Assembly (NCBI GenBank): GCA_002450095.1
Contig: DJYK01000026.1
Coordinates: forward strand, 17,781-81,780
Length of the DNA stretch: 64,000 bases
Direction of reading: 5' to 3'
From: Mageeibacillus sp. UBA6980
GTDB lineage: Bacteria > Bacillota > Clostridia > Saccharofermentanales > Saccharofermentanaceae
The notes under the pieces are model-generated. The model saw only the letters and a list, made by a program, of their open reading frames with translations. It was not told where the DNA came from and did no database searches. This document shows positions 528-36,800 of the stretch, piece by piece (within the stretch, counting starts at the first letter, position 1; each line of letters opens with the position of its first letter). The position numbers and the translations under genes are program-made.

Positions 528-3191
528 ATGTTAACTTGTCCGGCCTGTAATTCTGAGAATGTGTATTTCAGTAAAAAACGCTGTTGTAATATTTGTGAAG
601 ACTGCGGCAAGATATTTCGGGAAGACACAAGACTCAGGTTATTCTTCAGTTATGGTCACGACAAGCATAAAGATCTGGTTGATTTAATACGTAAGCGTCT
701 CGAAGAACGTGGTCACGTTGTATGGATAGATCACAACGATATCGTATTCAATGACGATTGGAGACAGGAAATAACAAGAGGAGTTATCGGTTCCGATGAA
801 ATAATCTCATTTATGTCAAAACATTCCCTACGCGATCCCGGAGTCTGTCTCGATGAAGTTCAAATAGCTATAAGTATAAAGAATGAGCGAGTCATACGAA
901 TCCATCTAGAGGAAACCAAAGAAATCAAACCTTCGACCGCTATATCTTCAAGGCAATACTTGGATATGAAAGATTGGGAAACGTACTATAAGCAGGGCGG
1001 GGAAGTATGGAACGAATGGTTCGATAAAAAGATGTCTGAACTTATTCGATGTATAGAAGATCCTGATAACGCACAATTCGATGGTGAGATAACAGAACTC
1101 TCCCGTAAGTTGCGCCCTATAGACTACTTAACGAGAGCAAGAATACTTTTGAAAGATGAATTCAGAGGCAGAACATGGTTGCTTGATAAGTATAAACAGT
1201 GGAAGAATAGTAGCGATTCCAATATATTCGTGTTATACGGTATACCCGGTGCAGGAAAGAGTGCATTTGCGTCTCGATTGTTTGATGAGGATTATGATGT
1301 TATTGCCTGTGTATTTTTCGAGTTCAGTAGAAAGGATATGTCGGATCTCGATAAAATTACTAATGTTCTAGCCTTTCAGATTGCCTGCAAACTTCCTGAT
1401 TACAGAGAATATCTGCTGTATTGCCTTAATAATGACAGTACTTTTCTTGAACTAGAAGGAATTACACGATTTGATTCTTATATAATAACGCCCCTACGTA
1501 ACTGTATAGTCGGCAGCCGCGACAACCAAATTATCGTTATCGATTCACTTGATGAGGCTTATGACCTTAATAATGAACTTGTAGTTTCGTTGCTCTCAAG
1601 GATAAGACTCTTACCTCGTTGGATAAAGGTCTTGGTTACCAGCAGATACAACAGTGCCATTGACGTATTATTGGACAACGCCGTTAAGACACATATCGAA
1701 AAAGAAACCAAAGATAACGATTCCGACTTAAAGGCTTATCTTTCTGATCACTTTGAAAACTTTCCGAGAATCAATGAACTTGTTTATAAATGTGAAGGCA
1801 GTTTTCTATATGCCTCAATGCTATGTCAGAAGGCAAACCAATCAAATGAATATGCCGAAGAACTACTTGAAACAAACGGAGGTCTTGACTCGTTCTATTA
1901 TCTGGATATTCGGCGGAAGTTTAATTCAGATAGCGGTTTAGATTTTAACAAATATAGACCAATACTCGAATTATTATGCGCCTCTAACGAAATTCCTGAA
2001 TCACTATTATTTCGCATTTTAAGCCTTGATAAGTATGATTATAATTCATTTAAAAACATATTTGCGGATTATATAATCAAAAAAGAATCTTTAGAATATG
2101 ATTTAGATAGGAATAATCAGATAATCAGTTTCTTTCATATGTCGTTCAACGACTGGCTAACTAACCCAGACAGCGCGAACGAGTTCTATATTAACGAACA
2201 AAATGGGGCTACTGTATTAGCCAATTATTTACTCGATAATACCAAGATTAATAACGAGCAAATAAAAGATTATATCGGGGGAAGATATTGGCATGACGGA
2301 GAGCTAATTTCAGTATTGATAAAAGCGGAATTATACAAAGACTGCATAGATATTCTTATTGACAACCCCAATAACAACAGAATGTGGCGTTATGTTAAAC
2401 AATTTCCATCATACATTGATATATCATCTTTAGAAGATACATTTGTTAACAATTGTCGTCACGAACAAATTTATCTAAACAAGATATCAACTGAAGATTT
2501 CATTTATAATTGGTTTCATTTTAGACGTCTTTCTTCCCGATACGAGACTCTATCTCACTTGCTATCAGATGAAAGATTTCTAATAATCCTTATTCAATTA
2601 CTACGCAATGACGATATAGATCCTACAACTTTGGTAGTTATATCACATTTCAAAACGAGTGTACTTCGTGAGATTCTAGGGCTCTATAAAATAGGCCAAA
2701 CACTATCTGATTGTTTAGACCAGTGCGATATACAAGGATATAATATTCCAGATGATATTCGTAAAAAAATCAATCTATTTATTCTTTGTTCCTGCTTTAG
2801 TTATGGTCATCCATCAATAGATTGTATTGAAACTCTAAGGAATGATAAGTTGTATCACAATATTAATGAAATCTGTTCTCTGTCAATTGAAGAGCTGTCT
2901 GTCTATGATATTAGCCAAGATTTAATAATAGCAAGGAACAAATACAACACTTCATGTTTAATAGATTATCTACTAAAACATCTATTTGAATACACCCATA
3001 AAGAACTTAACAACGATAATAAAAACCACATACTCCGTCTTGTTAAATATGGTGCCGAGTTCAATACCGTTATAAACCTTTTTAGAGATTTTGACCGCAG
3101 TAAACTCAAAGACATCATTCTTAATGAAAAGCTGAATTCAATTATTAGTTTGCTTACTCAAATCCAAAATGAACTACCAAATATCAAATGA
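528..3191 (+). CDS. Zn-ribbon - TIR - NACHT/STAND P-loop NTPase (bacterial NLR-like)
   Basis: 887 aa. N-terminal CPAC..CEDC zinc ribbon. TIR-like block RLFFSYGHDKH..WIDHNDI..GVCLDEVQIAI. Walker A YGIPGAGKSAF and Walker B IIVIDSLDEA. Long helical C-terminal region. Confidence 0.8.
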   Translation: MLTCPACNSENVYFSKKRCCNICEDCGKIFREDTRLRLFFSYGHDKHKDLVDLIRKRLEERGHVVWIDHNDIVFNDDWRQEITRGVIGSDEIISFMSKHSLRDPGVCLDEVQIAISIKNERVIRIHLEETKEIKPSTAISSRQYLDMKDWETYYKQGGEVWNEWFDKKMSELIRCIEDPDNAQFDGEITELSRKLRPIDYLTRARILLKDEFRGRTWLLDKYKQWKNSSDSNIFVLYGIPGAGKSAFASRLFDEDYDVIACVFFEFSRKDMSDLDKITNVLAFQIACKLPDYREYLLYCLNNDSTFLELEGITRFDSYIITPLRNCIVGSRDNQIIVIDSLDEAYDLNNELVVSLLSRIRLLPRWIKVLVTSRYNSAIDVLLDNAVKTHIEKETKDNDSDLKAYLSDHFENFPRINELVYKCEGSFLYASMLCQKANQSNEYAEELLETNGGLDSFYYLDIRRKFNSDSGLDFNKYRPILELLCASNEIPESLLFRILSLDKYDYNSFKNIFADYIIKKESLEYDLDRNNQIISFFHMSFNDWLTNPDSANEFYINEQNGATVLANYLLDNTKINNEQIKDYIGGRYWHDGELISVLIKAELYKDCIDILIDNPNNNRMWRYVKQFPSYIDISSLEDTFVNNCRHEQIYLNKISTEDFIYNWFHFRRLSSRYETLSHLLSDERFLIILIQLLRNDDIDPTTLVVISHFKTSVLREILGLYKIGQTLSDCLDQCDIQGYNIPDDIRKKINLFILCSCFSYGHPSIDCIETLRNDKLYHNINEICSLSIEELSVYDISQDLIIARNKYNTSCLIDYLLKHLFEYTHKELNNDNKNHILRLVKYGAEFNTVINLFRDFDRSKLKDIILNEKLNSIISLLTQIQNELPNIK

Positions 3192-3286: not shown

Positions 3287-3595
3287 TTAAACACAGTTGA
3301 AATAAGGTTTAAGGCTGTTCATGAGTTCCTTAATATCGCTGTAATCTACGAAGGCGAGCTCGCCATTTGCAAGGAGCGTTTTCAATGGATGGTCGGCGGC
3401 TAATGGTAAATTGCAGGTGATTCCTTTATCGATGAAGACCTTATACAGAGTATTACATTTCTCAAAGCCTAAACGGCAGCTGGATCTGCTGAAGGAAGAG
3501 GGGAGAGTGCATCGGTAGACTTCGCAGTTTCCTTCTTCAAGAAGATCTTTAAGCATATCGTATTGTTTCTGTGTTCCGTAAACGAATTCTCTCAT
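3287..3595 (-). CDS. Small protein (102 aa), paralog of the N-terminal domain of the adjacent AAA+ ATPase
   Basis: SD AAGGAGGA lies just upstream of the ATG, which is 3 nt after the stop of the JAB-E1 gene. It aligns by eye with residues 1-105 of the 5196..6488 product (RLGFEK/RLGIEK, YKVFID/YTVYIED, GELAFV/GELRFN, LKPYF/LEPLF). Confidence 0.7.
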   Translation of the reverse strand: MREFVYGTQKQYDMLKDLLEEGNCEVYRCTLPSSFSRSSCRLGFEKCNTLYKVFIDKGITCNLPLAADHPLKTLLANGELAFVDYSDIKELMNSLKPYFNCV

Positions 3596-3598
3596 GGG

Positions 3599-5194
3599 TT
3601 AATCCTCCTTAACGTCAATAATACGAGTGTCTTTCCATTTTCCTGCGAGTTTACTGAGATCGTGTATGCAACCGCAGAGCTTGCATTCTTTCTCCGGTGA
3701 CTGTTTGAACCAGATCGGTTCGTCTGTGAATGTATTATCGGATGCTTCCTTGTATATGTTATCGAAGCACTTTATTCCGAGTATACTGTTGATATCAGGG
3801 CTGGTTCTGATCATTACGAAGTTTCTGTCGGCAATCTGGTCAAGCAAATTGTTGTATGGACTGTCGGGAGCATCGTGATAACAAAGCATCATTAGTGCAA
3901 TCTGGCCCTTAAGTGAATTCATTCTTTCTGTAACAAATACAGAGCATTCGGCCGAACCGACATTGTTTTTATAGCCGTTCTCGTAGGCTACAAAACGGGG
4001 AAGGAGAATGCATCTCGGACAGGATTCGGTAACTCCGGGATAAACGAACATCAATTCGCATCCTGCTCCTCGCTCATAAACCATAGCAGCCAGATATGGT
4101 ATACCGAATTTCAAAGCTAAATAAGAACTCCTTTTCTGTGCTTCAAAATTATCAGTACAGCCAAGAATAAGGTAATCCTGAGGGCGCTTCCCCGGGAACA
4201 TATTAAGAAGTGAACCGAACTCTTCATCGCTCATACTGTTGTCCAGGAACCTGTTAACAGTAATTACATTTGCTTTGGGGTTAATGTCCAATATACGGCT
4301 CTTTATAACTTCAGTCTTCTGCTTGCCGATCTCACTTATGAATACTCCCTGAGTGGCAATGTTAGATGCACTGACTATGTCCTTATCCATAATAATATAG
4401 TTATTGAATCCGTGTCGGGCCATGTTCTCGAGGAATGATCTGGCTCCGCCTGCTCCGATGCAGACGATTACTTTGTTCCTGACATTGTCGGGAACCAAAG
4501 TATCAACTTTGCCAAACAGCTCAGTTGAGGTGGGAACTGTTGCCTCTACCGATTCCTTGGCAGGTTCCATCTTTTGCTTGGGCTGCGGATTAGTCTTTTC
4601 GATATACGAATCCACTTCTGAAATAGAATAAGAAGTGTGCCAGGATCTTCTGCCGGAGATAGCATAACCGTCCTTGGTTGCATCAATAATGTATTCCAGA
4701 CAGACGAGAATTCTATCATTAATAGTCCTTACTGTATAGAAGAACATTTTATAGAAACCGTTTTTGGTATTAGACATGAATATCGGCATATAGAAAACAG
4801 ATGAATGAAAGAAGTTCATCAGAATTCGTGCAGTCGAAATGTCGTGAAAAGAGGGTCTTATACATCCGTGAGGATGACTGTGGAAGAACCCCAGAGCTGA
4901 AATATAACCTCTGTCTTTCCAATCCCAATAGACATCGTTCATTGCCTTAGGATCATAATAGAATGTTCCTGCGGTGTTGCAGGAAGAAACATCAAACTCA
5001 GCAAGGTCAATCAGATTGGCGTCGTTGGTACAACCGAGCATACCTCCGGTTTCGGCAGGGTAACGACCTACGTTTGTTCTAAAATAGTCCAATACTTCTT
5101 TGGAAAACTTAACTACCGGGCTCTTGGGTAAATCAGCAGGCGTCTGCATCTTTGCATTTCTTCTATTATTTCTGCGAATTGTATATCTTCTCAT
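3599..5194 (-). CDS. JAB/JAMM (MPN+) metallopeptidase fused to a ThiF/MoeB/E1-like adenylyltransferase
   Basis: JAMM motif HSHPHGCIRPSFHD (HxHx7Sx2D) with an upstream AETGG Glu. C-terminal half has Rossmann VCIGAGGARS, DKDIVSASNIATQ, and the Cys pairs CPRC and CKLCGC as in ThiF/MoeB. ATG at 5194 is preferred over the ORF-track TTG at 5209 because SD GAGGAGG sits at 5201-5207 and the upstream gene stops at 5196-5198. Confidence 0.85.
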   Translation of the reverse strand: MRRYTIRRNNRRNAKMQTPADLPKSPVVKFSKEVLDYFRTNVGRYPAETGGMLGCTNDANLIDLAEFDVSSCNTAGTFYYDPKAMNDVYWDWKDRGYISALGFFHSHPHGCIRPSFHDISTARILMNFFHSSVFYMPIFMSNTKNGFYKMFFYTVRTINDRILVCLEYIIDATKDGYAISGRRSWHTSYSISEVDSYIEKTNPQPKQKMEPAKESVEATVPTSTELFGKVDTLVPDNVRNKVIVCIGAGGARSFLENMARHGFNNYIIMDKDIVSASNIATQGVFISEIGKQKTEVIKSRILDINPKANVITVNRFLDNSMSDEEFGSLLNMFPGKRPQDYLILGCTDNFEAQKRSSYLALKFGIPYLAAMVYERGAGCELMFVYPGVTESCPRCILLPRFVAYENGYKNNVGSAECSVFVTERMNSLKGQIALMMLCYHDAPDSPYNNLLDQIADRNFVMIRTSPDINSILGIKCFDNIYKEASDNTFTDEPIWFKQSPEKECKLCGCIHDLSKLAGKWKDTRIIDVKED

Positions 5195-5195
5195 T

Positions 5196-6488
5196 TTATG
5201 CCTCCTCAATAGTAATTCCGTCTTTGAGGTTTCCTTTTACTGCTACTCTTACGCTTTTTCTTTTGTTCTTCTTAATAACTTCGAAAAGCGATTTGCTCTC
5301 GCTTAAGCATTGCTCAACATTATTTCTTATAGTTCTGGCTCCATAAGCACTGTTGTTCAGATAAACAGTTGTCAGATCAAATATCAGGCGTTCGTCTATA
5401 CGAACCGGAGTAAGGTTATATTTGGTAAGACGATCGACTATGAATTTGTTTACTATGTTCATTATGGCTTCTTCATCAAGCTCATCGAAAATGATATAGT
5501 TGCTTATTCTGCTGCTTATTTCAGGACGGCCGCAGTAACGTGTGAAAGCATCTTTGCACAGTTCACATACTTCGTATCTGTTTCTGGCTGATGAAACACT
5601 TTTTACAGGGATATTCGAAGTGAATACCATTATGCAGCAACGGAGATCTATATCCGGTTTGTTGTTGTTTAAATGCAGGAAGCCCTTGTCAATTGCTTCC
5701 ATCAAAGCTGTTATAAGTGATGTGTGGGCTTTTTCAATTTCATCAAATATAAGCACATGAAAAGGATTGTTTCTTACAGGATCAAGAAGAGTCTTATCCT
5801 CGTAGCCTATATATGACGGCGGAGCGCCAAGAATTGACTGTACAGCATGTTCCTGGACAAATACATTGCAATTTATCCTTATTGTGTCGTAATTTGTACC
5901 GGATGCCTCTGACAGTACTTTTGATAATACTTCTGCACACTGTGTCTTACCGGTTCCGGTAGGTCCCATGAACATCATTGTTGTAGGGTGATCCTGTTCC
6001 AGCCATGTTGAAGAAGCAAGTATTCTTGAGACAGAATCAATCTGACGGTCCTGTCCGAATATCTCTTTCTTCAACGGTATTGCGATATCTTCTGATTCGA
6101 GGATCTTTCGATCCTCGTTAGTTCTGTTGTTAAGCATGTCCTTAACTTCGTTTTTGTTATAAAGCGTTTCTGTCTTCTGCTTGAAAAGAGGTTCAAGACC
6201 GATAAGAAAACTCATCATTTCATCAAATGAATTGAATCTTAATTCTCCGGTAGTGATAAGCTGCATGAACATTCTGTTATCACAGTTAAAGCGGATATTG
6301 TTATCTTCAATATAGACAGTATAGTTGCTGCCGGATTTCTCAATGCCTAATCTGGATGTAGGGGGAACACATCCTTCAGGCAGCTTGCAATTGCTGAACA
6401 GAGACATTCTGTTCATGGATTCAAGCTGAGTCAGTTCGTCTTTGAGCGACATTATATCTTCTATTGTTCCGGCAGCAAATCTATACAT
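5196..6488 (-). CDS. Single-module AAA+ ATPase of the ClpA/ClpB D2 (AAA_2) type with a novel N-terminal domain
   Basis: Walker A FMGPTGTGKTQ, GAPPSYIGYED, Walker B VLIFDEIEKAH, sensor-1 VFTSN, GRPEISSRI, sensor-2 GARTIRN. The N-terminal ~105 aa are paralogous to the 102-aa protein. SD AAAGGAG precedes the ATG. Confidence 0.85.
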   Translation of the reverse strand: MYRFAAGTIEDIMSLKDELTQLESMNRMSLFSNCKLPEGCVPPTSRLGIEKSGSNYTVYIEDNNIRFNCDNRMFMQLITTGELRFNSFDEMMSFLIGLEPLFKQKTETLYNKNEVKDMLNNRTNEDRKILESEDIAIPLKKEIFGQDRQIDSVSRILASSTWLEQDHPTTMMFMGPTGTGKTQCAEVLSKVLSEASGTNYDTIRINCNVFVQEHAVQSILGAPPSYIGYEDKTLLDPVRNNPFHVLIFDEIEKAHTSLITALMEAIDKGFLHLNNNKPDIDLRCCIMVFTSNIPVKSVSSARNRYEVCELCKDAFTRYCGRPEISSRISNYIIFDELDEEAIMNIVNKFIVDRLTKYNLTPVRIDERLIFDLTTVYLNNSAYGARTIRNNVEQCLSESKSLFEVIKKNKRKSVRVAVKGNLKDGITIEEA

Positions 6489-6533
6489 GTTTATTCTCCT
6501 TTACAAGTATTATTGAAGTTGGAATGATTCTGA

Positions 6534-6788
6534 TTACGGCATCGGTTTACGCTGCCCGTCTCCATGAAAGCCTCCGGAGGGCAGCGATTGGCGCTGCTCA
6601 CCTCCGTGGAAGCCTCCGGAGGGCAGCGATTCACGCTGCTCACCTCCGTGGAAGCCTCCGGAAGGCAGCGATTCGCGCTGCTCACCTCCGTGGAAGCCTC
6701 CGGAAGGCAGCGATTCACGCTGCTCACCTCCGTGGAATCCGAGAGAGGGAAGGTGTGTTCTTGTTGTAGTGTTCTGAATGTTTGTCAT
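6534..6788 (-). CDS. 84-aa tandem-repeat peptide (five 14-aa units LPSGGFHGGEQRES), first gene of the operon
   Basis: AAGGAG lies 9 nt upstream of the ATG at 6788, and the stop is 45 nt before the AAA+ gene. The repeat is open in all six frames, so coding status rests on the SD/ATG context and operon position. Confidence 0.55.
   Translation of the reverse strand: MTNIQNTTTRTHLPSLGFHGGEQRESLPSGGFHGGEQRESLPSGGFHGGEQRESLPSGGFHGGEQRQSLPSGGFHGDGQRKPMP
6538..6750. repeat. Head-to-tail 42-bp tandem repeat array (four near-perfect copies at 6567-6734 plus degenerate flanking copies)
   Basis: Copies at 6567-6608, 6609-6650, 6651-6692 and 6693-6734 differ by only a few bases each (unit gaagcctccggagggcagcgattcacgctgctcacctccgtg). 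Diverged partial copies lie on both sides. Confidence 0.95.
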
Positions 6789-6842
6789 AGTTGTTTTCTC
6801 CTTTATATAAGTTTTTTGTTGTGTGGCGAACCACGTTTATAC

Positions 6843-6998
6843 TCCTATGATATGTTGCTTTTTACTAAGCCCGGGGAGGGGGGTGATAATTTGAAGATCA
6901 ATCCTCTCCCTTGTTGTTATGCTCCTATGATATGATGCTTTTTCTATCATTCCCGTAGGGGGGTAATAAACTGAAAGTGGTAATTGATCCCCCCTCGC
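6843..6998. promoter_or_regulatory. Duplicated ~80-bp module in the divergent intergenic region (conserved 22-mer plus G-tract/C-tract hairpin)
   Basis: ctcctatgatatgTtgcttttt (6843-6864) and ctcctatgatatgAtgcttttt (6922-6943). Each is followed by a G-run (ggggagggggg / gtagggggg) and a complementary C-run (cctctccc / cccccctc). Confidence 0.5.
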
Positions 6999-7019
6999 AA
7001 TGCAATCTATATGAGCTCC

Positions 7020-7046
7020 TATAATTAACTAAAACCAATAAGGAGG
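7020..7046 (+). promoter_or_regulatory. Candidate -10 box and SD for the plus-strand operon
   Basis: TATAAT at 7020-7025 and AAGGAGG at 7040-7046, 6 nt before the ATG at 7053. No convincing -35 was seen. Confidence 0.35.
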
Positions 7047-7052
7047 TTCCAT

Positions 7053-7649
7053 ATGAGACTTGCAGATAACGGTTCATTAACTCTTGATAATAACTTACAG
7101 GAAGCCTTTATTGAGGACATAGACAGCTTTACATATATATGTCACGGACGTGTTCTTGAGGTTGATCATCATGAGTTGTTTTATTCAAAAAATCACAAGA
7201 TTGCGAACTCCATTTTCAGGGGGGAGCCCTATCAGTATGCTCATCAATCGATAGAATACAGAGTCAGACTCGGTAACCTCTCATATGGACGTTCGACAGA
7301 TTATAGAGATTACAATCTTTTTGGAAACTATCTTGGCATGATTAAGCCCGGAGATGAAGTAAAATTCAGAGTTCGTAAGGGACCTCGAGAGAAGGTTGTT
7401 GCAATTTATAACTGTACGACGGGAAGACAATTAAGACCGTCAATTCAGTTGTCTGCCGGTGTGGTCAGACTGTTTGCGGTTTTGGCCACGGCCTTGTTGG
7501 CCGGAGGCGTGTATGGTGTTTACTACCTGATAACGTCAGGCGTTCTTTGGCATATTTTTATGAAGATCCTTTATGGTCTTATCGGACTGGGCTTAGTCCT
7601 GTGGATCTATGATCTTTTGTTTTTCAGGTTCTTCAGAAAGAGAAAGTGA
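7053..7649 (+). CDS. Membrane protein (soluble N-domain plus C-terminal TM helices), function unknown
   Basis: 198 aa with a strong SD. Hydrophobic stretches VVRLFAVLATALLAGGVYGVYYLI and ILYGLIGLGLVLWIYDLLFF. Confidence 0.6.
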   Translation: MRLADNGSLTLDNNLQEAFIEDIDSFTYICHGRVLEVDHHELFYSKNHKIANSIFRGEPYQYAHQSIEYRVRLGNLSYGRSTDYRDYNLFGNYLGMIKPGDEVKFRVRKGPREKVVAIYNCTTGRQLRPSIQLSAGVVRLFAVLATALLAGGVYGVYYLITSGVLWHIFMKILYGLIGLGLVLWIYDLLFFRFFRKRK

Positions 7650-7652: not shown

Positions 7653-10157
7653 GTGAGGTGGAATATGGACAAGAATACTACTGATTATTTATCTGCAAAG
7701 AGAATTGCTTCCGGGATAGTAAATGTGTCTCAAGGATATGGTCTTGAGACTGTTGCTCCCGGTGATGTTCTTGCTGACAGAATACTTATGCCTGATGTAA
7801 ACAGATGGTACAGGCTCAATCAGATACGAGCCTGTTCTAATAATGAGAATACTCATAATACTTATAAGAATGCAATCAAAAGCACTATGGCATCGGTGTT
7901 AAGACAAAATGAAGATATCGTTTGTTCATATGTGTTTGATGGTGGCGAAGTGTCAGTAATGTATGGAGCAAGAAATGCCGATGTTGGCATGATGCTTGAA
8001 AGTTCTTTGCCTGAATGCAGAATGGAGATGGCAAGTCTTGATATTAATGACAGAACATACAGCTATAACGGAATAATTACCGGTCGTATCAGAGGAGAAG
8101 AGCTGTCGGATAAATTGGTTGCAGCAGGCGTTAACGGCGGATCAGGCTTTGTTGCACTTGTAGCCCAGAGTGTCCCTTTACAACACTTGAATGAAAGAAT
8201 TGAAAATAATAACCGTTTGATTGGTTTCCTTAACCGTTACTCTGTGTCACGTAATACTTATGGTGAGATGAGTAGGTACGAGGAAGAATATGTTGAACAG
8301 GATATTGTTAATGCCGTTGAAATACTGAAGGAAGAGAACGATGTATTGCTTCGTAACAGAGAAGAAGGATTTACATACTCTATAATAAGATTTGGTGCAA
8401 ATGGCATTGATTTATTCAACAGGCTCAAAACAATGCTTTGTTCAGTTAATTCTGCCTCTGTGGACAGAAATACCGGTGTAAGCCATGAACCTGTCAGATG
8501 TATTGAGATCCCCCCGTTTATGCGAATCAGACCGCTGGCTGTACCATACATTAAGTCAGGCGATAATGTTTATATCCCTGATACTATGGTTGCAATTGAT
8601 GAATTGTCAGAAGCATTTATTCCTGCGAGACGGTCTGTATTCGGATATAACTACATTAACTATCATATAGATGAAAACTCTTATGAAGCTTTTCCTACAA
8701 TGCCGTTGTTTGCCGGTAAATCGTTTGAAGTCGGAAAGATAAGCGATTCAAACGGAAAGGCTTTAATTCCTGTAAGTATGATAAATCAGCATGTCTTTGT
8801 TACCGGAAGTACAGGTCAGGGTAAAACGACTACGGTAAAGAAGCTTTTAGCAGAGGCGTGGAAAGAACAGATTCCTTTTATTGTCTTTGAGAGTGCAAAG
8901 AAGGAGTACTTCTCCCTTATTAAAGCAATACCGTCTCTTCGTGTGCTGACATCAGGCCTTGACGGTAACGCTTTGGCAACGGATCCTTTCTGCCCGGAAA
9001 GGGGCATTACTATAGGTGAACATGCTGATGCTTTGGAAAGGGCGATAATGGCAGCTTGTGAAGGCGAACATCCTATCCCCGAAGCTTTGGCGGGTTTGCT
9101 TGAGTATTCATATCGTAAATCCGGATGGGAGTATGATGAGCCGGCTTATGAAGATTTACGAAGACCTTTTCCTACAGCCCGGGAAGTATATGAGAATATC
9201 GACGATTATATACGAGAGAATGCCGGGTATGGTCAGGAAGTGACGGCAAATATCAAAGGAGCTCTCGAGATGAGGATCAGGGTTCTGACCAGCGGATTGG
9301 CAACTCATGTGTTTACCTATAATAATGCAATGACTGCCAGGGAACTGCTATCTGTTCCGACCGTGATTGAGATGGAAGATTACCCCGAGAAACTAAGAGT
9401 GTTCTTGACCAATATCCTTTTGTTTAAGATCAAGTCTTATCTCAAAAAGGTTGCTGAGAGTGATTCATTGAAAAGAATCATAGTAATAGAAGAAGCGCAT
9501 AATATCTTCCGAAAGACAATACATGAAGAATCAACTCAGGCTGCAAATAACAGATATATAGAGAATATGCTCGCAACCGTACGTGCATCCGGTACAGGGA
9601 TAATTATAAGTGATCAGCGTCCGTCATTAATGTCTGACGCAGTTATAGCAAATACTTCCGTGAAAATACTGCATGCTCAAACATCGTCTGAAGATATCAA
9701 TATTGTTGGTCAGAGTATGGGGCTTACAGAGTTTCAGATAAGAAAAGTGAGAGAGCTTCGTAAAGGCGAATGTCTTATTGCATTGACCGGTGTCCACGGA
9801 GTTCAGAGAGCGAAGATTAATATGTTGGAAACAACAGCTGCAATCAATGCTGCGTGCCATATTTGTCATCATCGTTATGACTGTAAACAATCTATGGCTG
9901 CCAGAACAGTCGCATCTATGAATCGGGATTTGTTGAAATACCATGTATCCGGAATCCTCGGTGTGATATATGAACCTGATAGGCTTAAGTCCGGCCTCGA
10001 CAGATTATTCCATGATGTCGGATTATATTGCGGATTGACAGCCTCGTGTTGTGTTTTGGCAGAGATACTGAATGAGTATGCACCTGATCTTTCTTTCGAA
10101 GAGAAGAGGATAATCGTAACTTCATATTACAGGTTTTTATCCCCCCTCAAGAGATGA
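7653..10157 (+). CDS. HerA/FtsK-superfamily (DUF87-like) P-loop ATPase with a large N-terminal extension
   Basis: Walker A VTGSTGQGKTTT, Walker B RIIVIEEAHNIF, then IIISDQRPS. No TM segment. The start is ambiguous (GTG 7653 or ATG 7665). Confidence 0.7.
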   Translation: MRWNMDKNTTDYLSAKRIASGIVNVSQGYGLETVAPGDVLADRILMPDVNRWYRLNQIRACSNNENTHNTYKNAIKSTMASVLRQNEDIVCSYVFDGGEVSVMYGARNADVGMMLESSLPECRMEMASLDINDRTYSYNGIITGRIRGEELSDKLVAAGVNGGSGFVALVAQSVPLQHLNERIENNNRLIGFLNRYSVSRNTYGEMSRYEEEYVEQDIVNAVEILKEENDVLLRNREEGFTYSIIRFGANGIDLFNRLKTMLCSVNSASVDRNTGVSHEPVRCIEIPPFMRIRPLAVPYIKSGDNVYIPDTMVAIDELSEAFIPARRSVFGYNYINYHIDENSYEAFPTMPLFAGKSFEVGKISDSNGKALIPVSMINQHVFVTGSTGQGKTTTVKKLLAEAWKEQIPFIVFESAKKEYFSLIKAIPSLRVLTSGLDGNALATDPFCPERGITIGEHADALERAIMAACEGEHPIPEALAGLLEYSYRKSGWEYDEPAYEDLRRPFPTAREVYENIDDYIRENAGYGQEVTANIKGALEMRIRVLTSGLATHVFTYNNAMTARELLSVPTVIEMEDYPEKLRVFLTNILLFKIKSYLKKVAESDSLKRIIVIEEAHNIFRKTIHEESTQAANNRYIENMLATVRASGTGIIISDQRPSLMSDAVIANTSVKILHAQTSSEDINIVGQSMGLTEFQIRKVRELRKGECLIALTGVHGVQRAKINMLETTAAINAACHICHHRYDCKQSMAARTVASMNRDLLKYHVSGILGVIYEPDRLKSGLDRLFHDVGLYCGLTASCCVLAEILNEYAPDLSFEEKRIIVTSYYRFLSPLKR

Positions 10158-10197: not shown

Positions 10198-10422
10198 ATG
10201 GCAGAAGTATTAGGACCAATTGTTTGTGTTGTATATGCTTGTATAGCTGTTGGGTTGATAACCGGTACAGACGATTCGTTTAAGTGCAAAGTTATCGGAA
10301 TCTGTTTCGCTGTAGCTGCGATTCCTCTGGTGGTTTTTATGGACGTCGTGATTAAAGTTCTCGGCGTGTTAATTGTAATAGCAGCGATTTTAATATTTAT
10401 CTACTGCCTGTTAGGAGTGTGA
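10198..10422 (+). CDS. Small two-TM membrane protein
   Basis: 74 aa, almost entirely hydrophobic. SD AAGGAGGAAGG upstream. Confidence 0.6.
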   Translation: MAEVLGPIVCVVYACIAVGLITGTDDSFKCKVIGICFAVAAIPLVVFMDVVIKVLGVLIVIAAILIFIYCLLGV

Positions 10423-10928
10423 CTGTTATGGATAAGACTATCTATTCTGTTTTTCTTGTAGTTGTAATAGTCGGAGCTTGTGTAATTAAGCTTGTGTATC
10501 TTAATTGTAAGGAACGCAAGGCTCAGCAACAGCGAAATAGGAACAATAACAATAGCAGCAATATTAACAGTAACAGGAATAGTGTAAGCCGCCCGATAAT
10601 ACAGGAAAGTACACCTGTTGCCCGTGCAAATATTAGTAATAATTATGTTTATTATTTTGCAAACGGCAGAGGCCCTCTTGAAGACAGGACGTTTTGTTTC
10701 AGTTACGAGAAAGTTGGTGAATCCTGGCGTGCTTATATAGTAAAAATGCCTTCCTTGAGATCTCGTGATGCGTCATTCGCGTTGACCCACAGATTGAGAG
10801 CGGATGACGGCAGGACGTATGTCTGCTGGGACAGTCCGATACATAATCTGAAGGATATGCAGAATGTATCTAAGATGTGGGCTGACTGTATTTGTGAGTA
10901 CATCAAGACAGGAAAGAGATTCGGATGA
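10419..10928 (+). CDS. Single-pass membrane protein with an Asn-rich linker, function unknown
   Basis: N-terminal TM YSVFLVVVIVGACVIKLVYL, then QQQRNRNNNNSSNINSNRN, then a globular C-domain. Overlaps the upstream stop. The start could be ATG 10428. Confidence 0.5.
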   Translation: MTVMDKTIYSVFLVVVIVGACVIKLVYLNCKERKAQQQRNRNNNNSSNINSNRNSVSRPIIQESTPVARANISNNYVYYFANGRGPLEDRTFCFSYEKVGESWRAYIVKMPSLRSRDASFALTHRLRADDGRTYVCWDSPIHNLKDMQNVSKMWADCICEYIKTGKRFG

Positions 10929-10938
10929 GGGAAAAGAT

Positions 10939-11718
10939 ATGAAACTAATGAAAAACAAGTTAACGAATATGGGTGAAGCACAGGCGCACGCTGAAAGCTG
11001 CCATTGGAATTCACTTGGAAGAATTGCTGAGACTGAAGGCAGATTCATCTCTGATGCTGACAAGGAGCGGATAGCCGGCGGTGTAGATACACTTAAGGTT
11101 GTTGAGTACGATCCTTTCGGTGAACGAAGCGGTGGGTACAGATGCCTAGAGGGTAAAAGCGAGATGGAGATATCTGTTCTTAATAAAGAACAGGTTGAAC
11201 GCACTACAATGCATGAGACAAACCATTTCGTAAGTCATCACAGCGAGACTTCCGTCCCATCCGTGGAACGTAACGGTGTATATGAGTACCAGACGGTAGG
11301 ATTGCGCCACTCTTCTTGGTTCAGGTCTAATGAGACGGGCAAAGTTCAAGAGGTGAAGATAACGGGCCGTGGACTTAACGAAGGTGTTACTACGATGTAC
11401 ACGAACAGACAGTTGATGGAATTAGACCGTGCCAAAGGTTTGGAGGCTGCAAGAACCGGAATATATCAGCATGCTACTGAGTTGTCATCCCAGCTTGAGA
11501 TAATTGTCGGCAGCGATGTTCTTAAGGAGGCATATTACGGAGGCAAGGAAAACGAGTTGAAAGAGCGGGTTGATAGACTTGGAGGAGCTGGTACTTACGA
11601 GAGATTGCGGGAATGCATGGATGGAACCGTATCATCTAACTATTATGAGCGAATCAATTCGACTGCACGGGCTCAGAAGATAATGGAAGAACTGTATGAA
11701 GGAGCGAAGAGAAAATGA
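10939..11718 (+). CDS. Putative HExxH zinc metallopeptidase
   Basis: MHETNHF motif plus a downstream GLNEGVT (possible third ligand). ATG 10939 chosen from the longer 10864 ORF because the preceding gene ends at 10928. Confidence 0.45.
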   Translation: MKLMKNKLTNMGEAQAHAESCHWNSLGRIAETEGRFISDADKERIAGGVDTLKVVEYDPFGERSGGYRCLEGKSEMEISVLNKEQVERTTMHETNHFVSHHSETSVPSVERNGVYEYQTVGLRHSSWFRSNETGKVQEVKITGRGLNEGVTTMYTNRQLMELDRAKGLEAARTGIYQHATELSSQLEIIVGSDVLKEAYYGGKENELKERVDRLGGAGTYERLRECMDGTVSSNYYERINSTARAQKIMEELYEGAKRK

Positions 11719-12056
11719 AAGATTATGTTATGAACTATTTGTTCTCAAACGGCGTAAGTATTAACTCGGTTAAGGAAGAGCAGGAGATCGAAGAAGGTAT
11801 ATCGCTCTTTCTTACAGAGTGCGGCTTGGCTCGAAGTAAGGATTCAGAGTATGCCAGAGGATATGTAAGACAGATCTTGTCGATAATAGACCCCCGTGAT
11901 ATAAAACAAATATTTTTGAAGTATAATGTAATAAGTAGAACGAGACAGCTCGCAGCCGAAGGCCGTACCTATGCGGATCCTGAGATGATGAAGTGTCTTA
12001 CTGAACTGAATGAGTGCGGGTTATACGGAAAGTATGTGCCCAATGTAGAAGAGTAA
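11715..12056 (+). CDS. Small hypothetical protein, translationally coupled to the peptidase gene
   Basis: ATGA start/stop overlap at 11715-11718. 113 aa with no recognisable motif. Confidence 0.5.
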   Translation: MKDYVMNYLFSNGVSINSVKEEQEIEEGISLFLTECGLARSKDSEYARGYVRQILSIIDPRDIKQIFLKYNVISRTRQLAAEGRTYADPEMMKCLTELNECGLYGKYVPNVEE

Positions 12057-12073
12057 TATCAGGAGGAATGATT

Positions 12074-13774
12074 ATGGCAGTTAGAACTATTACAAGAAGA
12101 ATGAATGCAGCTGAAGAAGCATTTGTTTCCGAACTTACAAAGATACATTCGAGACATAACTTTGAGAATCTTCTCACAAAAATACTGGTTGAATCCAGAG
12201 AATCAAATACTGAAGTATGGAATGAGTTGGTTGGTAAACTTTTTGATATGTTAAGAGATTGTGATATCGAGTTTAGTGAGGATGTTTTTTCAGACCCTGC
12301 GAATTACGATGCTGACAAAGAATATATAGAATCTTTGCTTGATAATGTCGAACTTGAAAATAGTGATGATGTTTTAAGATGTCTTATGGGAAAGGTACAG
12401 AATGTAATTGAAGCTGCGCCTTTACCTGAAGCATATTTGGAAAGGATTGTTGACCATGCATTAAATGGTGAATTGAATGGTGATTCCTTACGCCTCAAGA
12501 TCCTCAAGAGATTTATTAAGTATGGACGAGATGCTTTGTTTGATTCTGATAGTATTTCTGCAGAAAAACCGGGAGCCGGTTACGGCGGTAAAGGGTATAT
12601 ATATAAATGCGCACAAAAAAATGCTGGGGCAGATATTAGTATAGAGAAAGAAGACTACGATAGAATTGCTGATTATATCGATGAAAGTGTATTCAATGTT
12701 TTAAATGATGACGAGATAAATCGTGATAATTTCAGACCTGGCCGAACGTATGGAATTATTAAGGTGGTTAACGATCTTGCAAATGGACTTTTCAGGTCTA
12801 ATGAATCAACAAAGAAAGACTTATATATATTTGCCATAATTTTTGATATGTCATTCTATTATGAGGATCCTTTGCGTGCTCAGATACGTGATGAGTATTT
12901 AGATGTCGAGACGGGTTTGTTTGATAACTATTATCAGAATAATATTAAACGATTCATTAATGAAAAATATTATGATAAAGATAATGATTGTCTTGGTTCT
13001 GCATACGAGATAATACCTTCCGGAAGTGGAATTAACTATAATAACTTTGTTGAGTTGACGTACATATACTATTTATCTAATACTTTGGCGGAGGAAATGA
13101 CTCCGGAGGAAAAGATCAGAAGATCAGCGGCAATGATTCAAAGAATCAGAAATGCAGATAGAAATACTCATGAAGTATTAAATACGGCTCAGAGTAAGAG
13201 TTTTTTTGTTGATGATATTTTGAAAAAAAGTATAACTGAAGATAGTTATTTTGATTTTGTTGTAAAGAATATTGATATTGGTGAAAAAGACGATAACTGT
13301 GGACCGATGCAATATGGAGTTGGATCAGATACAGCATTTAGAGAATATAAATCCATAATCAATCAATATGATCAGCTTAAGGCTGAAGTGAAAGATCAGC
13401 TTAATCAGATGAAAATTGATGATAAGTATTGTGAAATAATTGATCATCAGGGTCATTATCTTGACTATTTCCCGGAAGATAGAACTCCTGCGTTTGATTG
13501 TGTTATTAAGATTTTGGATCGTATGTTGAAGGAAGATTATGTGCAATCAAAAGAGAAACTAACCAGAACACATATGATAGCTGCTTATTATGAGTACTTT
13601 ATATTGAAGTATTCTGACGATAAGTCTACGTTGTATGATTTCAAAGATGTGTATGATTGGTTTAAGAACGGGATTAATTATCACTTGAGAATTTCAGGAT
13701 ATACGGAGATAAACGCCAAGAGTTTGTTGGATATTCTCATTATAGCTTCTGCATATTCGTATTTGGCATTGTGA
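12074..13774 (+). CDS. Hypothetical protein (566 aa)
   Basis: AGGAGG at 12061-12066, 7 nt before ATG 12074. No motif recognised. Confidence 0.55.
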   Translation: MAVRTITRRMNAAEEAFVSELTKIHSRHNFENLLTKILVESRESNTEVWNELVGKLFDMLRDCDIEFSEDVFSDPANYDADKEYIESLLDNVELENSDDVLRCLMGKVQNVIEAAPLPEAYLERIVDHALNGELNGDSLRLKILKRFIKYGRDALFDSDSISAEKPGAGYGGKGYIYKCAQKNAGADISIEKEDYDRIADYIDESVFNVLNDDEINRDNFRPGRTYGIIKVVNDLANGLFRSNESTKKDLYIFAIIFDMSFYYEDPLRAQIRDEYLDVETGLFDNYYQNNIKRFINEKYYDKDNDCLGSAYEIIPSGSGINYNNFVELTYIYYLSNTLAEEMTPEEKIRRSAAMIQRIRNADRNTHEVLNTAQSKSFFVDDILKKSITEDSYFDFVVKNIDIGEKDDNCGPMQYGVGSDTAFREYKSIINQYDQLKAEVKDQLNQMKIDDKYCEIIDHQGHYLDYFPEDRTPAFDCVIKILDRMLKEDYVQSKEKLTRTHMIAAYYEYFILKYSDDKSTLYDFKDVYDWFKNGINYHLRISGYTEINAKSLLDILIIASAYSYLAL

Positions 13775-13792: not shown

Positions 13793-14470
13793 ATGGGATT
13801 AAGTGAACCCGGTTTTTACCATGTACAAGAGTGTGTACCTAATCAGGATTGTATTCTTGCTGGTACCGTGAATAATTATCGAGTAGCAGTATTGGCTGAT
13901 GGAGTTTCTACTTGTCGTTGTTCAGGACAAGGTGCTTTTTTAGCCTGTTCTAAAACAAGAAGTTTTTTACTGAATAATGCAGAAGATGTTTTCGAATATG
14001 ATAAAGAATCAATTGCTGAATACATAGTTGATTCTGTTTATCGCTCTTTGTGTGAAGTATCAAATGTAAATGGCGATGCTCCCGCTGACTATTCCAGTAC
14101 ACTATCTGCAGTCTTATATGATCGCAGATCTCACCGATTAGTATGCTTTCATTTGGGAGATGGGTTGATTCTTTTGGCAAATAGGAAAGGATGCAGAGCT
14201 TTATGCATCCCGGGCAGCCGCATTAACGGAACAGCAGTTACAACAACAATTGGTGCTCATAAGGTATCAGTTGTTGTTAAAGAAGATATCTCATTTGATA
14301 AACACGTGTTATTGTGTTCAGATGGGGCATGGGAGAATATGTATAGAAAGGGATTCTTAAAGAATGAACCATTAAAATACATAACTAAAGGCAGGTTTAA
14401 TGCTTTGGATAATTATATTAGAAATACACATCCTAATGACGACTACAGTTATATTGCGATGAAACTATAG
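13793..14470 (+). CDS. PP2C-family Ser/Thr protein phosphatase
   Basis: VLADGVS, HLGDGLILL and LLCSDGAWE blocks, matching the metal-binding Asp motifs of bacterial PP2C/SpoIIE-like phosphatases. Confidence 0.7.
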   Translation: MGLSEPGFYHVQECVPNQDCILAGTVNNYRVAVLADGVSTCRCSGQGAFLACSKTRSFLLNNAEDVFEYDKESIAEYIVDSVYRSLCEVSNVNGDAPADYSSTLSAVLYDRRSHRLVCFHLGDGLILLANRKGCRALCIPGSRINGTAVTTTIGAHKVSVVVKEDISFDKHVLLCSDGAWENMYRKGFLKNEPLKYITKGRFNALDNYIRNTHPNDDYSYIAMKL

Positions 14471-36511: not shown

Positions 36512-36800
36512 CTCGCGGCGGATAATGATCAGGCGGATATTATATGACCGCTTGGGTCTTACAGATGTCAGTAATGAAGGAGGCATGATAAAAAGTAAAA
36601 CAGGGGCGATGTGAAAGCTATCACGGTTGTATTATTCAAGTACAACAGTGAGACAGAGTAGATACTAACTCGACATATTTACTGATCCGTATGAGGTCGC
36701 GAAGGAGAATGGGAAGTTAGCAATCGAATCATGCAGAGGTCGAGAAGGCCGAATAGGAGATTGGAAGCATCACCCAACAGAAGTTGTCTTGCTGAAGGAA
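36512..36800 (+). ncRNA. Candidate IS110 bridge-RNA-type noncoding RNA in the left arm
   Basis: Long non-coding stretch between the -10-like box and the transposase SD, with local hairpins (e.g. ggttgta..tacaac). The assignment is by analogy only and the boundaries are not determined. Confidence 0.3.

What the first reader, a model, noticed from the sequence alone, without database searches (positions are those of the whole stretch)
6534..6788. Tandem 14-aa repeat peptide (LPSGGFHGGEQRES x5) encoded by near-perfect 42-bp repeats, read as a possible multi-copy precursor
Seen in the sequence: the first gene of the operon encodes MTNIQNTTTRTH followed by five head-to-tail copies of LPS(G/L)GFHGGEQRES. 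The DNA repeats differ by only a few bases, which suggests recent expansion or homogenisation. Every unit carries the Gly-Gly dipeptides GGF and HGGE.

Established knowledge:
- Ubiquitin-like tags are matured to a C-terminal Gly-Gly by JAB or DUB peptidases before E1 adenylation.
- Polyubiquitin is a head-to-tail precursor.
- Pup ends in GGE/GGQ.

Inference: the adjacent JAMM peptidase could cut this poly-peptide into about 14-aa units ending in GG, and the fused E1 could activate them. That would be a very small ubiquitin-like tag or a multi-core RiPP-like precursor. Copy number could vary between strains.
Basis: partly seen in the sequence, partly recalled or inferred. Interest (0 to 1): 0.75.

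Follow-up and report, generated by a model that had tools for sequence, protein, structure and literature searches.

The report
Tandem mini-peptide gene partnered with JAB–E1
A small gene made of head-to-tail copies of a 14-residue peptide is real, translated and always found next to a fused peptidase and ubiquitin-activating-type enzyme in gut bacteria, so it may feed a protein-tagging or peptide-maturation pathway that uses no ubiquitin-like fold.

Summary
On the minus strand, 6788-6534 encodes MTNIQNTTTRTH followed by five LPS(G/L)GFHGGEQRES units, from a 42-bp repeat.

It is a real gene, not a DNA repeat:
- Every related locus with enough flanking DNA carries the same kind of gene. That covers Lachnospiraceae, Faecalibacterium, Planctomycetes and an unassigned metagenome contig (L106), with JAB-E1 identity down to about 30%.
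- The shared core is P(x)G[G/T][F/W][H/R/Y]-G-G, in 1 to 19 copies.
- Copy number differs between near-identical strains.
- Differences between units within an array are mostly synonymous (409 versus 121).

The gene belongs to a conserved cluster I found no description of:
- a ClpB-like AAA+ ATPase
- the JAB-E1 fusion
- two small domains with no known fold
- a HerA/VirB4-like ATPase
- a protein with a zinc-peptidase motif
- membrane proteins

The cluster often sits beside defence genes. I detected no ubiquitin-like fold and no E2.

The most likely reading is that the peptide is the substrate of JAB-E1, cut at the GG junction and adenylated at its C-terminus. This is inferred, not shown. The cut site is unresolved: nine genes stop exactly after the core His/Arg and none stops after GG. 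I found no publication on it. Interest is high.

The parts
6534..6788 (-). Repeat-peptide gene (84 aa): a hydrophilic 12-aa leader, then 5 cores LPS(G/L)GFH joined by GGEQR(E/Q)S linkers, then a short tail
   Evidence: Searches give the ORF, translation and ribosome-binding site. Searches show the same kind of gene in related loci. Searches show purifying selection in this frame.
6538..6737 (-). 42-bp tandem repeat array inside the gene
   Evidence: period 42, 4.8 copies, 91% matches, score 309.
5196..6488 (-). AAA+ ATPase (430 aa). It has one ClpA/ClpB D2-like module with Walker A GPTGTGKT, Walker B LIFDEIEKA and pore-loop-like APPSYIGYE, preceded by a novel N-terminal domain of about 100 aa
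   Evidence: sequence. Pfam AAA_2 5.7e-26. ClpA 5.8e-40, ClpB 1.9e-38. PADLOC DolB 2.2e-21. Found in 21 of the first 21 loci.
3599..5209 (-). JAB-E1 fusion. The likely start is the ATG at 5194, giving 531 aa. The JAMM motif is intact (E, HxH, S, D). The ThiF-type adenylation domain has a CxxC...CxxC zinc site
   Evidence: ThiF 3.1e-20, Prok-JAB 5.3e-07. Searches give the invariant residues. One search gives the gene call of 531 aa.
3287..3595 (-). 102-aa protein, a free-standing paralogue of the N-terminal domain of the AAA+ ATPase
   Evidence: alignment. AF2 pLDDT 93.5; no PDB fold match; only 43 clusters among 1.84 billion representative proteins.
7053..7649 (+). 198-aa protein with two C-terminal membrane helices, conserved in the cluster and divergently transcribed
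   Evidence: homologues in 13 loci; sequence; no family match.
7653..10157 (+). HerA/FtsK/VirB4-like ATPase (834 aa)
   Evidence: DUF87, HerA_C. CedD 3.6e-23, HerA_antiphage 2.6e-11; conserved in 14 loci.
10198..10422 (+). 74-aa small membrane protein. Related loci carry a small membrane protein of the same type (77 aa) between the peptide gene and the AAA+ gene
   Evidence: The similarity is by type only; no significant BLAST match.
10419..10928 (+). 169-aa protein: an N-terminal membrane helix, a low-complexity linker and a conserved 93-aa domain of unknown fold. Invariant residues are W, Y, I, R, H-R, C, W, Y, and the tail reads YIxTGxxF
   Evidence: AF2 pLDDT 84; no fold match. It is also present, without the membrane helix, directly before JAB-E1 in Planctomycete loci.
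10864..11718 (+). Protein with a gluzincin-like metallopeptidase motif. The likely start is the ATG at 10939. Invariant motifs are HETxH and NEG.TT. It is a second candidate for processing the peptide
   Evidence: alignment of 9 homologues; conserved in 12 loci. No Pfam or NCBIfam match.
11715..12056 (+). 113-aa conserved protein of unknown function, the last gene shared with related clusters
   Evidence: homologues in 7 loci.

Best explanation
**What it is.** The gene encodes a translated, cytoplasmic, intrinsically repetitive polypeptide: leader, then core-linker repeats, then an optional tail. It is the dedicated peptide component of a conserved multi-gene system built around a JAB-E1 fusion and a ClpB-like AAA+ unfoldase. 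The system often lies in defence islands.

**Proposed mechanism (all steps inferred, none shown).**
1. The array is cut at the conserved aromatic-[H/R]-G-G-[E/D]-Q junction into units of 12 to 16 residues. The cutter would be the JAB peptidase, possibly helped by the gluzincin-like protein.
2. The AAA+ ATPase, whose N-terminal domain also exists as a free 102-aa paralogue, may feed the disordered chain to the peptidase.
3. The E1 domain adenylates the new C-terminus. That end is either ...F-H, as the natural stop codons suggest, or ...F-H-G-G, as E1/JAB precedent suggests.
4. The acyl-adenylate is resolved without an E2. Either it is transferred to a nucleophile on a target protein, or the peptide itself is chemically matured.

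**What is shown directly.** The gene is translated and under purifying selection. It is linked to JAB-E1 wherever the flanks could be read. Its copy number is polymorphic. The catalytic motifs of JAB, E1 and AAA+ are intact.
For: **Conservation and linkage**
- The gene was found in 83 of 104 sources by one motif search.
- Of the other 21, nineteen are contigs cut at the AAA+ gene or right after JAB-E1. The remaining two (L007, L072) carry variant or single-unit genes.
- Planctomycete and other distant loci, with JAB-E1 at 30-40% identity, have their own versions: LPAGTWH-GGDDD x2 and VPGTFH-GGGQSS x5.

**Selection on the peptide**
- Positions 1-11 of the unit (LPGGGFHGGEQ) are nearly invariant. 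Positions 12-14 vary.
- Synonymous versus non-synonymous differences: 409:121 pooled; 27:0, 24:0 and 26:2 in single arrays.

**Enzymes and operon**
- JAMM residues E, H, H, S, D and the E1 motifs and zinc cysteines are invariant across the deep family.
- The operon is tight, with gaps of 45, 1 and 3 nt.
- Leaders have no hydrophobic run longer than 5 residues, so there is no signal peptide.

**Precedent and context**
- A JAB peptidase pre-processes the E1 substrate in the Bil system (PMC10557695).
- JAB-E1 fusions occur with tandem Ubl domains in operon class 6e (PMC1779556).
- Defence genes flank the cluster in the window and in several related loci.
Against: - No experiment or structure links the peptide to either enzyme. 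Co-occurrence is the only tie.
- No E2-like or beta-grasp protein was detected. Neither small conserved domain matches any PDB fold, and the 93-aa domain also matches nothing in BFVD.
- No cysteine outside the zinc site is invariant in the E1, so a classical thioester relay is unlikely.
- The cut site is ambiguous. GG is universal, yet no gene ends in GG and nine end right after the core.
- Many genes of the Faecalibacterium and Fusicatenibacter types carry a C-terminal tail of 30-60 aa after the repeats, and one has a single core. That fits a non-cleaved protein as well as a precursor.
- The roles of the HerA/VirB4-like ATPase, the TraG-like ATPase present in 11 loci, and the membrane proteins are unexplained.
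Confidence: 0.4

Rival explanations
1. RiPP-like product. The gene is a multi-core precursor of a small modified peptide. The units would be excised, and the E1 would work like MccB or PaaA, as an adenylating or tailoring enzyme that makes a peptidyl-nucleotide, a macrolactam or a thiocarboxylate. The product would be exported or delivered by the HerA/VirB4-like and TraG-like ATPases and the membrane proteins. It would serve as a toxin, a signal or an immunity molecule rather than as a protein tag.
For: - The architecture of leader, repeated conserved core and variable spacer matches multi-core precursors.
- The E1 domain matches MccB about as well as it matches Ubl-activating E1s: 7.8e-07 versus 1.8e-07 to 6e-06.
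- No E2 was found, and the E1 has no invariant catalytic cysteine.
- Secretion-type ATPases and several membrane proteins are conserved in the cluster.
Against: - No transporter, immunity gene or tailoring enzyme typical of known RiPP classes is in the cluster.
- The core is conserved across phyla rather than diversified.
- The neighbourhood looks like a defence island rather than a biosynthetic one.
- An AAA+ unfoldase is not a usual RiPP component.
Confidence: 0.2
2. Uncleaved repeat protein. The polypeptide would act whole, as a disordered multivalent scaffold, adaptor, pseudosubstrate or decoy. Each core would be a docking site, for example for the N-domain of the AAA+ or for the 93-aa domain. 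If JAB-E1 acts on it at all, it would only trim and activate the C-terminus, as Cap2 and Cap3 do with the cGAS-like enzyme in type II CBASS.
For: - Genes with a single core plus a folded-looking C-terminal tail exist.
- Copy number is very tolerant, from 1 to 19.
- Arrays begin and end with a core, with linkers only in between.
- Nine genes end exactly at the core His/Arg, which could be the single activated end.
- The composition is 20% Gly, with regularly spaced Phe/His.
Against: - The invariant GG-E-Q after every core looks more like a processing or recognition site than a passive linker.
- The C-terminal ends are very heterogeneous, which is odd for a single activated terminus.
Confidence: 0.2
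3. Not a coding feature. The 42-bp repeat would be a DNA-level or RNA-level element, such as a regulatory repeat, a recombination hotspot or an assembly artefact, and the ORF would be incidental.
For: - Several other frames across the array are also free of stop codons.
- Assemblies often break in the repeat.
Against: - Units differ mostly at synonymous sites, 409:121.
- The peptide motif is kept while the DNA differs at up to 15 of 42 positions between loci.
- The peptide motif persists with different unit lengths (36, 39, 42, 45 and 48 nt) and in different phyla.
- A ribosome-binding site and ATG are present.
- No Rfam match.
Confidence: 0.01

Closest known systems
Bacterial ubiquitin-like conjugation systems with a JAB peptidase and an E1: BilABCD (class 6C), class 6e JAB-E1 operons, and CBASS Cap2/Cap3
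   Same: - An N-terminal JAB fused to a ThiF-type E1, as in class 6e (PMC1779556).
- An intact JAMM motif and adenylation motifs.
- Precedent for a JAB trimming the E1 substrate to expose its C-terminus (PMC10557695).
- Patchy, accessory distribution in defence islands.
   Different: - No beta-grasp Ubl and no E2-like protein were detected.
- The candidate substrate is a tandem array of peptides of 12 to 16 residues.
- The cluster adds a ClpB-like AAA+, a HerA/VirB4-like ATPase, a gluzincin-like protein and membrane proteins.
- The E1 lacks an invariant catalytic cysteine.
Polyubiquitin, and the two- to three-fold tandem Ubl proteins of bacterial class 6e operons
   Same: - Head-to-tail copies in one ORF, next to a peptidase and an E1.
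- A Gly-Gly in every unit.
- Variable copy number.
   Different: - Units are 12 to 16 residues, too short to form a ubiquitin-like (beta-grasp) domain.
- No gene ends in GG.
- Several genes end at Phe-His or Phe-Arg.
Multi-core RiPP precursors, and E1-like RiPP enzymes such as MccB (microcin C) and PaaA (pantocin A). This comparison rests on my own knowledge.
   Same: - A leader followed by repeated cores and spacers.
- An E1-like adenylating enzyme that could act on a peptide C-terminus; the match to MccB is 7.8e-07.
- No E2.
   Different: - No C-terminal Asn, and no export or immunity genes of the microcin C type.
- A JAB peptidase and an AAA+ unfoldase are not part of known RiPP pathways.
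Pup-proteasome system. This comparison rests on my own knowledge.
   Same: - A small disordered tag that contains GGE/GGQ.
- A partner AAA+ unfoldase (Mpa there, a ClpB-like ATPase here).
   Different: - Pup is ligated by glutamine-synthetase-like PafA/Dop, not by an E1. No profile of such an enzyme matched the cluster proteins scanned.
- Pup is a single-copy 64-aa protein, not a tandem array.
Dodola (DolA/DolB) and PADLOC candidate system PDC-M37
   Same: The AAA+ ATPase matches DolB and PDC-M37B at about 1e-21.
   Different: - No other cluster protein scanned (the peptide, JAB-E1, the 102-aa and 198-aa proteins, the HerA-like ATPase) matched DolA or any other Dodola model in PADLOC.
- The AAA+ match is to the generic ClpB-type module.

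Membership tests
Ubiquitin-like conjugation system (E1 + E2 + Ubl + DUB; Bil, Bub, CBASS type II) | ThiF/E1 adenylation domain with nucleotide-binding and Mg-binding motifs | tested here: met
   Pfam ThiF 3.1e-20. GxGGxR, D..D, NxATQ, D348 and CxxC...CxxC are invariant.
Ubiquitin-like conjugation system (E1 + E2 + Ubl + DUB; Bil, Bub, CBASS type II) | JAB/JAMM peptidase with an intact E...HxH...S..D motif | tested here: met
   Prok-JAB 5.3e-07. E48, H105, H107, S115 and D118 are invariant in the deep alignment.
Ubiquitin-like conjugation system (E1 + E2 + Ubl + DUB; Bil, Bub, CBASS type II) | Beta-grasp Ubl with a C-terminal Gly as the modifier | tested here: not met
   The peptide units are 12 to 16 aa. 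The two small conserved proteins fold as beta-beta-beta-beta-beta-alpha and alpha-beta3-alpha-beta-alpha, with no PDB match. No Ubl family match.
Ubiquitin-like conjugation system (E1 + E2 + Ubl + DUB; Bil, Bub, CBASS type II) | E2 (UBC-fold) protein with a catalytic Cys | tested here: inconclusive
   No Pfam, NCBIfam or PADLOC E2 match. No Foldseek match. However, the 93-aa domain has an invariant H-R...C, and diverged E2s such as CEHH/BilB were missed by sequence methods before.
Ubiquitin-like conjugation system (E1 + E2 + Ubl + DUB; Bil, Bub, CBASS type II) | Covalent conjugation of the modifier to target proteins | not testable with these tools
   Needs biochemistry or proteomics.
Polyubiquitin-type tandem precursor | Head-to-tail identical units in one ORF, each ending in the activated C-terminal GG | tested here: inconclusive
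   The tandem units are confirmed. Every unit contains GG. Yet 0 of 64 genes end in GG and 9 end right after the core His/Arg, so the phase of the unit is unresolved.
Microcin C-type RiPP (MccA/MccB) | Short precursor ending in Asn, an MccB with an N-terminal peptide clamp, and MccC/E/F export and immunity genes | tested here: not met
   No gene has a C-terminal Asn. The part N-terminal to the E1 is a JAB domain. No export or immunity genes are in the cluster. Only the generic E1 core matches MccB.
Pupylation (Pup/PafA/Dop/Mpa) | PafA/Dop glutamine-synthetase-like ligase and deamidase | tested here: not met
   No PafA/Dop profile matched any cluster protein scanned.
Sulfur-carrier systems with JAB (CysO/Mec+, QbsE/QbsD/QbsC) | Beta-grasp carrier ending in GG, plus a sulfur-transfer partner (rhodanese, cysteine synthase) | tested here: not met
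   No beta-grasp protein, no rhodanese domain on the E1 and no sulfur-metabolism genes in the cluster.
Dodola defence system | DolA together with DolB | tested here: not met
   Only the AAA+ matches DolB, at 2.2e-21. None of the other cluster proteins scanned matched DolA.

The most novel reading that the evidence does not exclude
An E2-less, ubiquitin-like tagging pathway whose tag is a peptide of 9 to 16 residues rather than a beta-grasp protein. The tag would be released in many copies from a tandem precursor by a JAB (or zinc) peptidase and activated by the fused E1. It would be attached to target proteins, for example proteins of an invading phage or plasmid. The tagged proteins would then be recognised and unfolded by the dedicated ClpB-like AAA+ through its novel N-domain. 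This would be a third, independent invention of degradation or inactivation tagging in bacteria, alongside Pup and the Ubl systems, and it would be present in abundant human gut commensals.
Probability: 0.15. Interest if true: 0.95.

Novelty: new variant of a known kind. Interest (0 to 1): 0.8.

Why it matters
- **New substrate class for E1/JAB enzymes.** These pairs are known to act on folded ubiquitin-like proteins, or on the tail of a cGAS-like enzyme. A genetically encoded tandem mini-peptide as their partner would be a new substrate class. It would be either a minimal protein tag or a new kind of ribosomal peptide product.
- **Directly testable.** The peptides are short and easy to synthesise, and the enzymes carry clear catalytic motifs.
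- **Present in common gut bacteria.** The system occurs in Fusicatenibacter saccharivorans, Faecalibacterium, Frisingicoccus, Bariatricus and Blautia. One Fusicatenibacter JAB-E1 protein was seen on at least 1000 contigs.
- **Strain marker.** Repeat number differs between strains, so it could mark strains and perhaps tune dosage.
- **Under-annotated.** Assemblers break contigs inside the array, so the gene is systematically missed in metagenomes.
- **New domains.** The cluster contains two confidently folded small domains with no structural relatives.

Tried and rejected
- **Rfam scan** of 6000-7600, both strands: no RNA family. The 80-nt intergenic direct repeats are not unusually stable as RNA (z = -0.73), and their motif is absent from the first 21 related loci.
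- **Plasmid megablast** of the operon: no match.
- **Viral contigs**: neither the back-translated repeat nor JAB-E1 relatives were found, so a phage origin is not supported.
- **E2 hypothesis for the 93-aa domain, and E2/RWD or Ubl hypothesis for the 102-aa domain.** The AF2 models are confident (pLDDT 84 and 93.5). Neither matches anything in the PDB, and the 93-aa model matches nothing in BFVD (best E about 0.2). Not supported, though a very diverged E2 cannot be excluded.
- **The 93-aa protein as the E1 substrate through a C-terminal Gly.** Its tails read YIxTGxxF followed by either G-stop or ExQxW-stop. There is no general C-terminal Gly, so I dropped this idea.
- **Catalytic cysteine in the E1 crossover loop.** Cys422 is invariant among the close homologues. 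It is shifted in Planctomycete proteins and absent in L106, so it is not a family feature.
- **Giant proteins that matched the 102-aa query** (P0225, P0229, P0242, P0251). They are Ig, ankyrin or SWM repeat proteins, so the matches are spurious.
- **P0208**, an apparent fusion of E1 and the 93-aa domain, looks like a deletion or assembly chimera.
- **First versus last core degeneracy as a way to phase the unit.** Both ends of arrays show degenerate cores, so this is not decisive.
- **Literature searches**: RiPP + ThiF + JAMM; JAB + ThiF + ClpB + HerA; 6A-MBL; JAB-E1 and E1-JAB; the string GGFHGG. None found a description of this peptide or cluster.
I rebuilt the alignments from database hits.
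Full report
**1. The observation**

Window 6788-6534 on the minus strand is an ATG-initiated ORF of 84 codons, with AAGGAGA 8 nt upstream. It reads MTNIQNTTTRTH, then LPSLGFHGGEQRES, LPSGGFHGGEQRES twice, LPSGGFHGGEQRQS, and finally a degenerate LPSGGFHGDGQRKPMP. Tandem Repeats Finder reports period 42, 4.8 copies, 91% matches and no indels at 6538-6737.

The operon runs as follows:
- peptide gene
- 45 nt gap
- AAA+ ATPase (6488-5196)
- 1 nt gap
- JAB-E1 (5194-3599)
- 3 nt gap
- a 102-aa gene (3595-3287)

So the gene adjacent to the peptide gene is the AAA+ ATPase, not the JAB enzyme.

**2. It is a gene under selection on the peptide**

The JAB-E1 protein has hundreds of relatives at 44-58% identity in Lachnospiraceae and Faecalibacterium, and at about 30-32% in Planctomycete-type loci. 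I collected 106 related loci.

One motif search found a repeat-peptide gene in 83 of 104 sources. The 21 misses break down as follows:
- Nineteen are contigs that end at the AAA+ gene or right after JAB-E1, which is where the array lies.
- Two carry variants: L007 with CPGGFH-GGEQQET-LPGGGFH, and L072 with a single core plus a tail.

Distant versions keep the motif with other unit lengths:
- MPKGTFRGGEQQDTET (16 aa)
- MPAGTFRGGEQxxSK (15 aa)
- LPAGTWH-GGDDD (12 aa, Planctomycete-type)
- VPGTFH-GGGQSS (12 aa)

Across 40 distinct 14-aa units, positions 1-11 (L-P-G-G-G-F-H-G-G-E-Q) are nearly invariant and positions 12-14 vary.

Differences between units of one array are overwhelmingly synonymous:
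- L006: 27 synonymous, 0 non-synonymous
- L016: 24 and 0
- L010: 26 and 2
- window: 7 and 4
- pooled: 409 and 121

The DNA consensus differs at up to 15 of 42 positions between loci while the peptide is kept. The result is the opposite.

Copy number ranges from 1 to 19. It differs between loci whose JAB-E1 proteins are identical: 3, 5 and 19 cores in L003, L001 and L002. Other loci with the same leader and tail carry 3, 5 and 7. Leaders are hydrophilic, with no hydrophobic run above 5 residues, so there is no signal peptide.

**3. The neighbourhood**

Nine genes recur together:
- **The peptide gene.**
- **A single-module ClpA/ClpB-D2-like AAA+**, with Walker A and B motifs and a ClpB-type pore-loop motif.
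- **The JAB-E1 fusion**, with all JAMM and adenylation residues and a CxxC...CxxC zinc site invariant.
- **A 102-aa protein** that is a free copy of the N-domain of the AAA+. In L106 the N-domain and the AAA+ are separate genes.
- **A membrane protein** with two C-terminal helices (198 aa in the window).
- **A HerA/FtsK/VirB4-like ATPase**.
- **A membrane-tethered 93-aa domain** with invariant W, Y, R, H-R, C, W, Y.
- **A protein with invariant HETxH...NEG.TT**, a gluzincin-like motif.
- **A 113-aa protein.**

The Planctomycete-type locus L105 keeps a DUF87/HerA-like ATPase, the peptide, the 93-aa domain, JAB-E1, the AAA+ and a further small gene. In Bythopirellula the gene after the AAA+ is a membrane protein.

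In 11 Lachnospiraceae-type loci a soluble TraG/VirD4-like ATPase lies directly upstream of the peptide gene. The window has none.

Flanking genes are often defence genes:
- In the window: a TIR-STAND NTPase, a PP2C phosphatase, a kinase fused to a Card1-like nuclease, and a TIR-Sel1-TPR protein.
- Elsewhere: type III restriction-modification, Cas1, a Card1-like nuclease, TIR, IetA and TRIP13.

No relative was found on viral contigs or plasmids.

**4. What the unknown parts are not**

AF2 models of the 93-aa and 102-aa domains are confident (pLDDT 84 and 93.5). Neither matches anything in the PDB. The 93-aa model also matches nothing in BFVD.

So I could find neither a ubiquitin-like fold nor an E2. 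The E1 has no invariant cysteine besides the zinc ligands. That points to ThiF/MoeB/MccB-type adenylate chemistry rather than a thioester relay. The E1 core is about equally distant from SAE2, UBA5, MoeB, ThiF and MccB.

**5. Mechanism**

The best reading (confidence 0.4) is that the repeat polypeptide is the dedicated substrate of JAB-E1. It would be cut at the conserved junction, and the new C-terminus would be adenylated. The AAA+ would act as feeder or as reader.

The phase of the cut is unresolved.
- **For a cut after GG:** the universal aromatic-[H/R/Y]-G-G motif, and the precedent that JAB peptidases expose the C-terminal Gly of an E1 substrate.
- **For a C-terminal His/Arg:** none of 64 distinct genes ends in GG, while nine end exactly after the core. 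Their stop codons are TAA or TGA, each followed by unique DNA, in at least four independent lineages. In addition, 13 leaders carry a GG-E-Q linker before the first core without a preceding core.
- **A third option:** the gluzincin-like protein cuts before Leu and JAB trims after GG, leaving LPGGGFHGG, which is most of the conserved stretch.

Rivals:
- a RiPP-like modified peptide that is exported or delivered by the secretion-type ATPases (0.2)
- an uncleaved multivalent repeat protein whose C-terminus alone is processed (0.2)
- a non-coding repeat (0.01, effectively refuted)

**6. Comparison and novelty**

The enzyme pair belongs to the known world of bacterial E1/JAB operons. These include class 6e of Iyer et al. 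2006 (PMC1779556), Bil (PMC10557695) and CBASS Cap2/Cap3. The system fails the membership tests for a Ubl (not met) and an E2 (inconclusive). It also fails the defining features of microcin C, pupylation, sulfur-carrier systems and Dodola.

Seven full-text literature searches, including one for the string GGFHGG, found no description. I file it as a new variant of a known kind. There is about a 15% chance that it is a categorically new short-peptide tagging system.

**7. Limits**

- All functional statements rest on gene linkage, conservation and motif integrity.
- The synonymous/non-synonymous count is slightly biased. Units were recognised by the core motif, so units with a broken core were excluded.

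Noticed in passing
window 6837-6996, with a partial third copy near 7007-7025: Two 80-nt direct repeats lie in the divergent intergenic region between the peptide operon and the 198-aa/HerA operon. Each has a G6...C6 hairpin and ends in CATATCATAGGAG. There is no Rfam match, the fold z-score is -0.73, and the motif is absent from the first 21 related loci. They may be operator or promoter repeats.
   Followed up: partly
window 528-3191, 13793-14470, 14486-18601, 18674-21523: The cluster is flanked by defence-type genes: a TIR-STAND NTPase, a PP2C phosphatase next to a 1371-aa protein kinase with a Card1-like nuclease domain, and a TIR-Sel1-TPR protein.
   Followed up: partly
L007 4517-5779, L032 2964-4232, L098 3145-4407, L025, L074, L016, L011, L026, L042, L013: A soluble TraG/VirD4-like coupling-protein ATPase of about 420 aa sits directly upstream of the peptide gene in 11 related loci. 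Together with the VirB4/HerA-like ATPase this hints at a translocation apparatus. It is absent from the window.
   Followed up: partly
L022, L023, L030, L082, L088, L103 (start in the array); L035, L038, L052, L057, L069, L073, L085 (end in it): Short-read assemblies break inside the repeat array. As a result the peptide gene is often truncated or missing from metagenome contigs and gene catalogues.
   Followed up: yes
window 12014-13774: This 586-aa ORF, just after the conserved cluster, has no Pfam, NCBIfam or PHROG match and no counterpart in the related loci.
   Followed up: no
L020 4316-5884 and L021 12768-14243 (Bythopirellula polymerisocia): The Planctomycete genome carries two paralogous copies of the minimal system. 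Next to each is a second, different JAB-E1 fusion protein.
   Followed up: no
window 10419-10928 and homologues P0121-P0207: The C-terminal tail of the 93-aa domain comes in two conserved forms: YIxTGK(R)FG-stop and YIxTGxxFExQxW-stop. The F-E-x-Q ending faintly echoes the F-H-G-G-E-Q of the peptide.
   Followed up: partly
L099 4196-4984: One array contains an internal stretch read in another frame (...GESRRRHFQG...) before returning to the LPGGGFH frame. This is either a sequencing error in a long assembly or a real frameshifted allele.
   Followed up: no
window 47226-58091 and 59308-63054; 36731-37906: A non-ribosomal peptide synthetase cluster (three proteins with adenylation, carrier and condensation or thioesterase domains) is followed by an FtsX-like permease. 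An IS110-family transposase lies upstream. These are unrelated to the finding.
   Followed up: no
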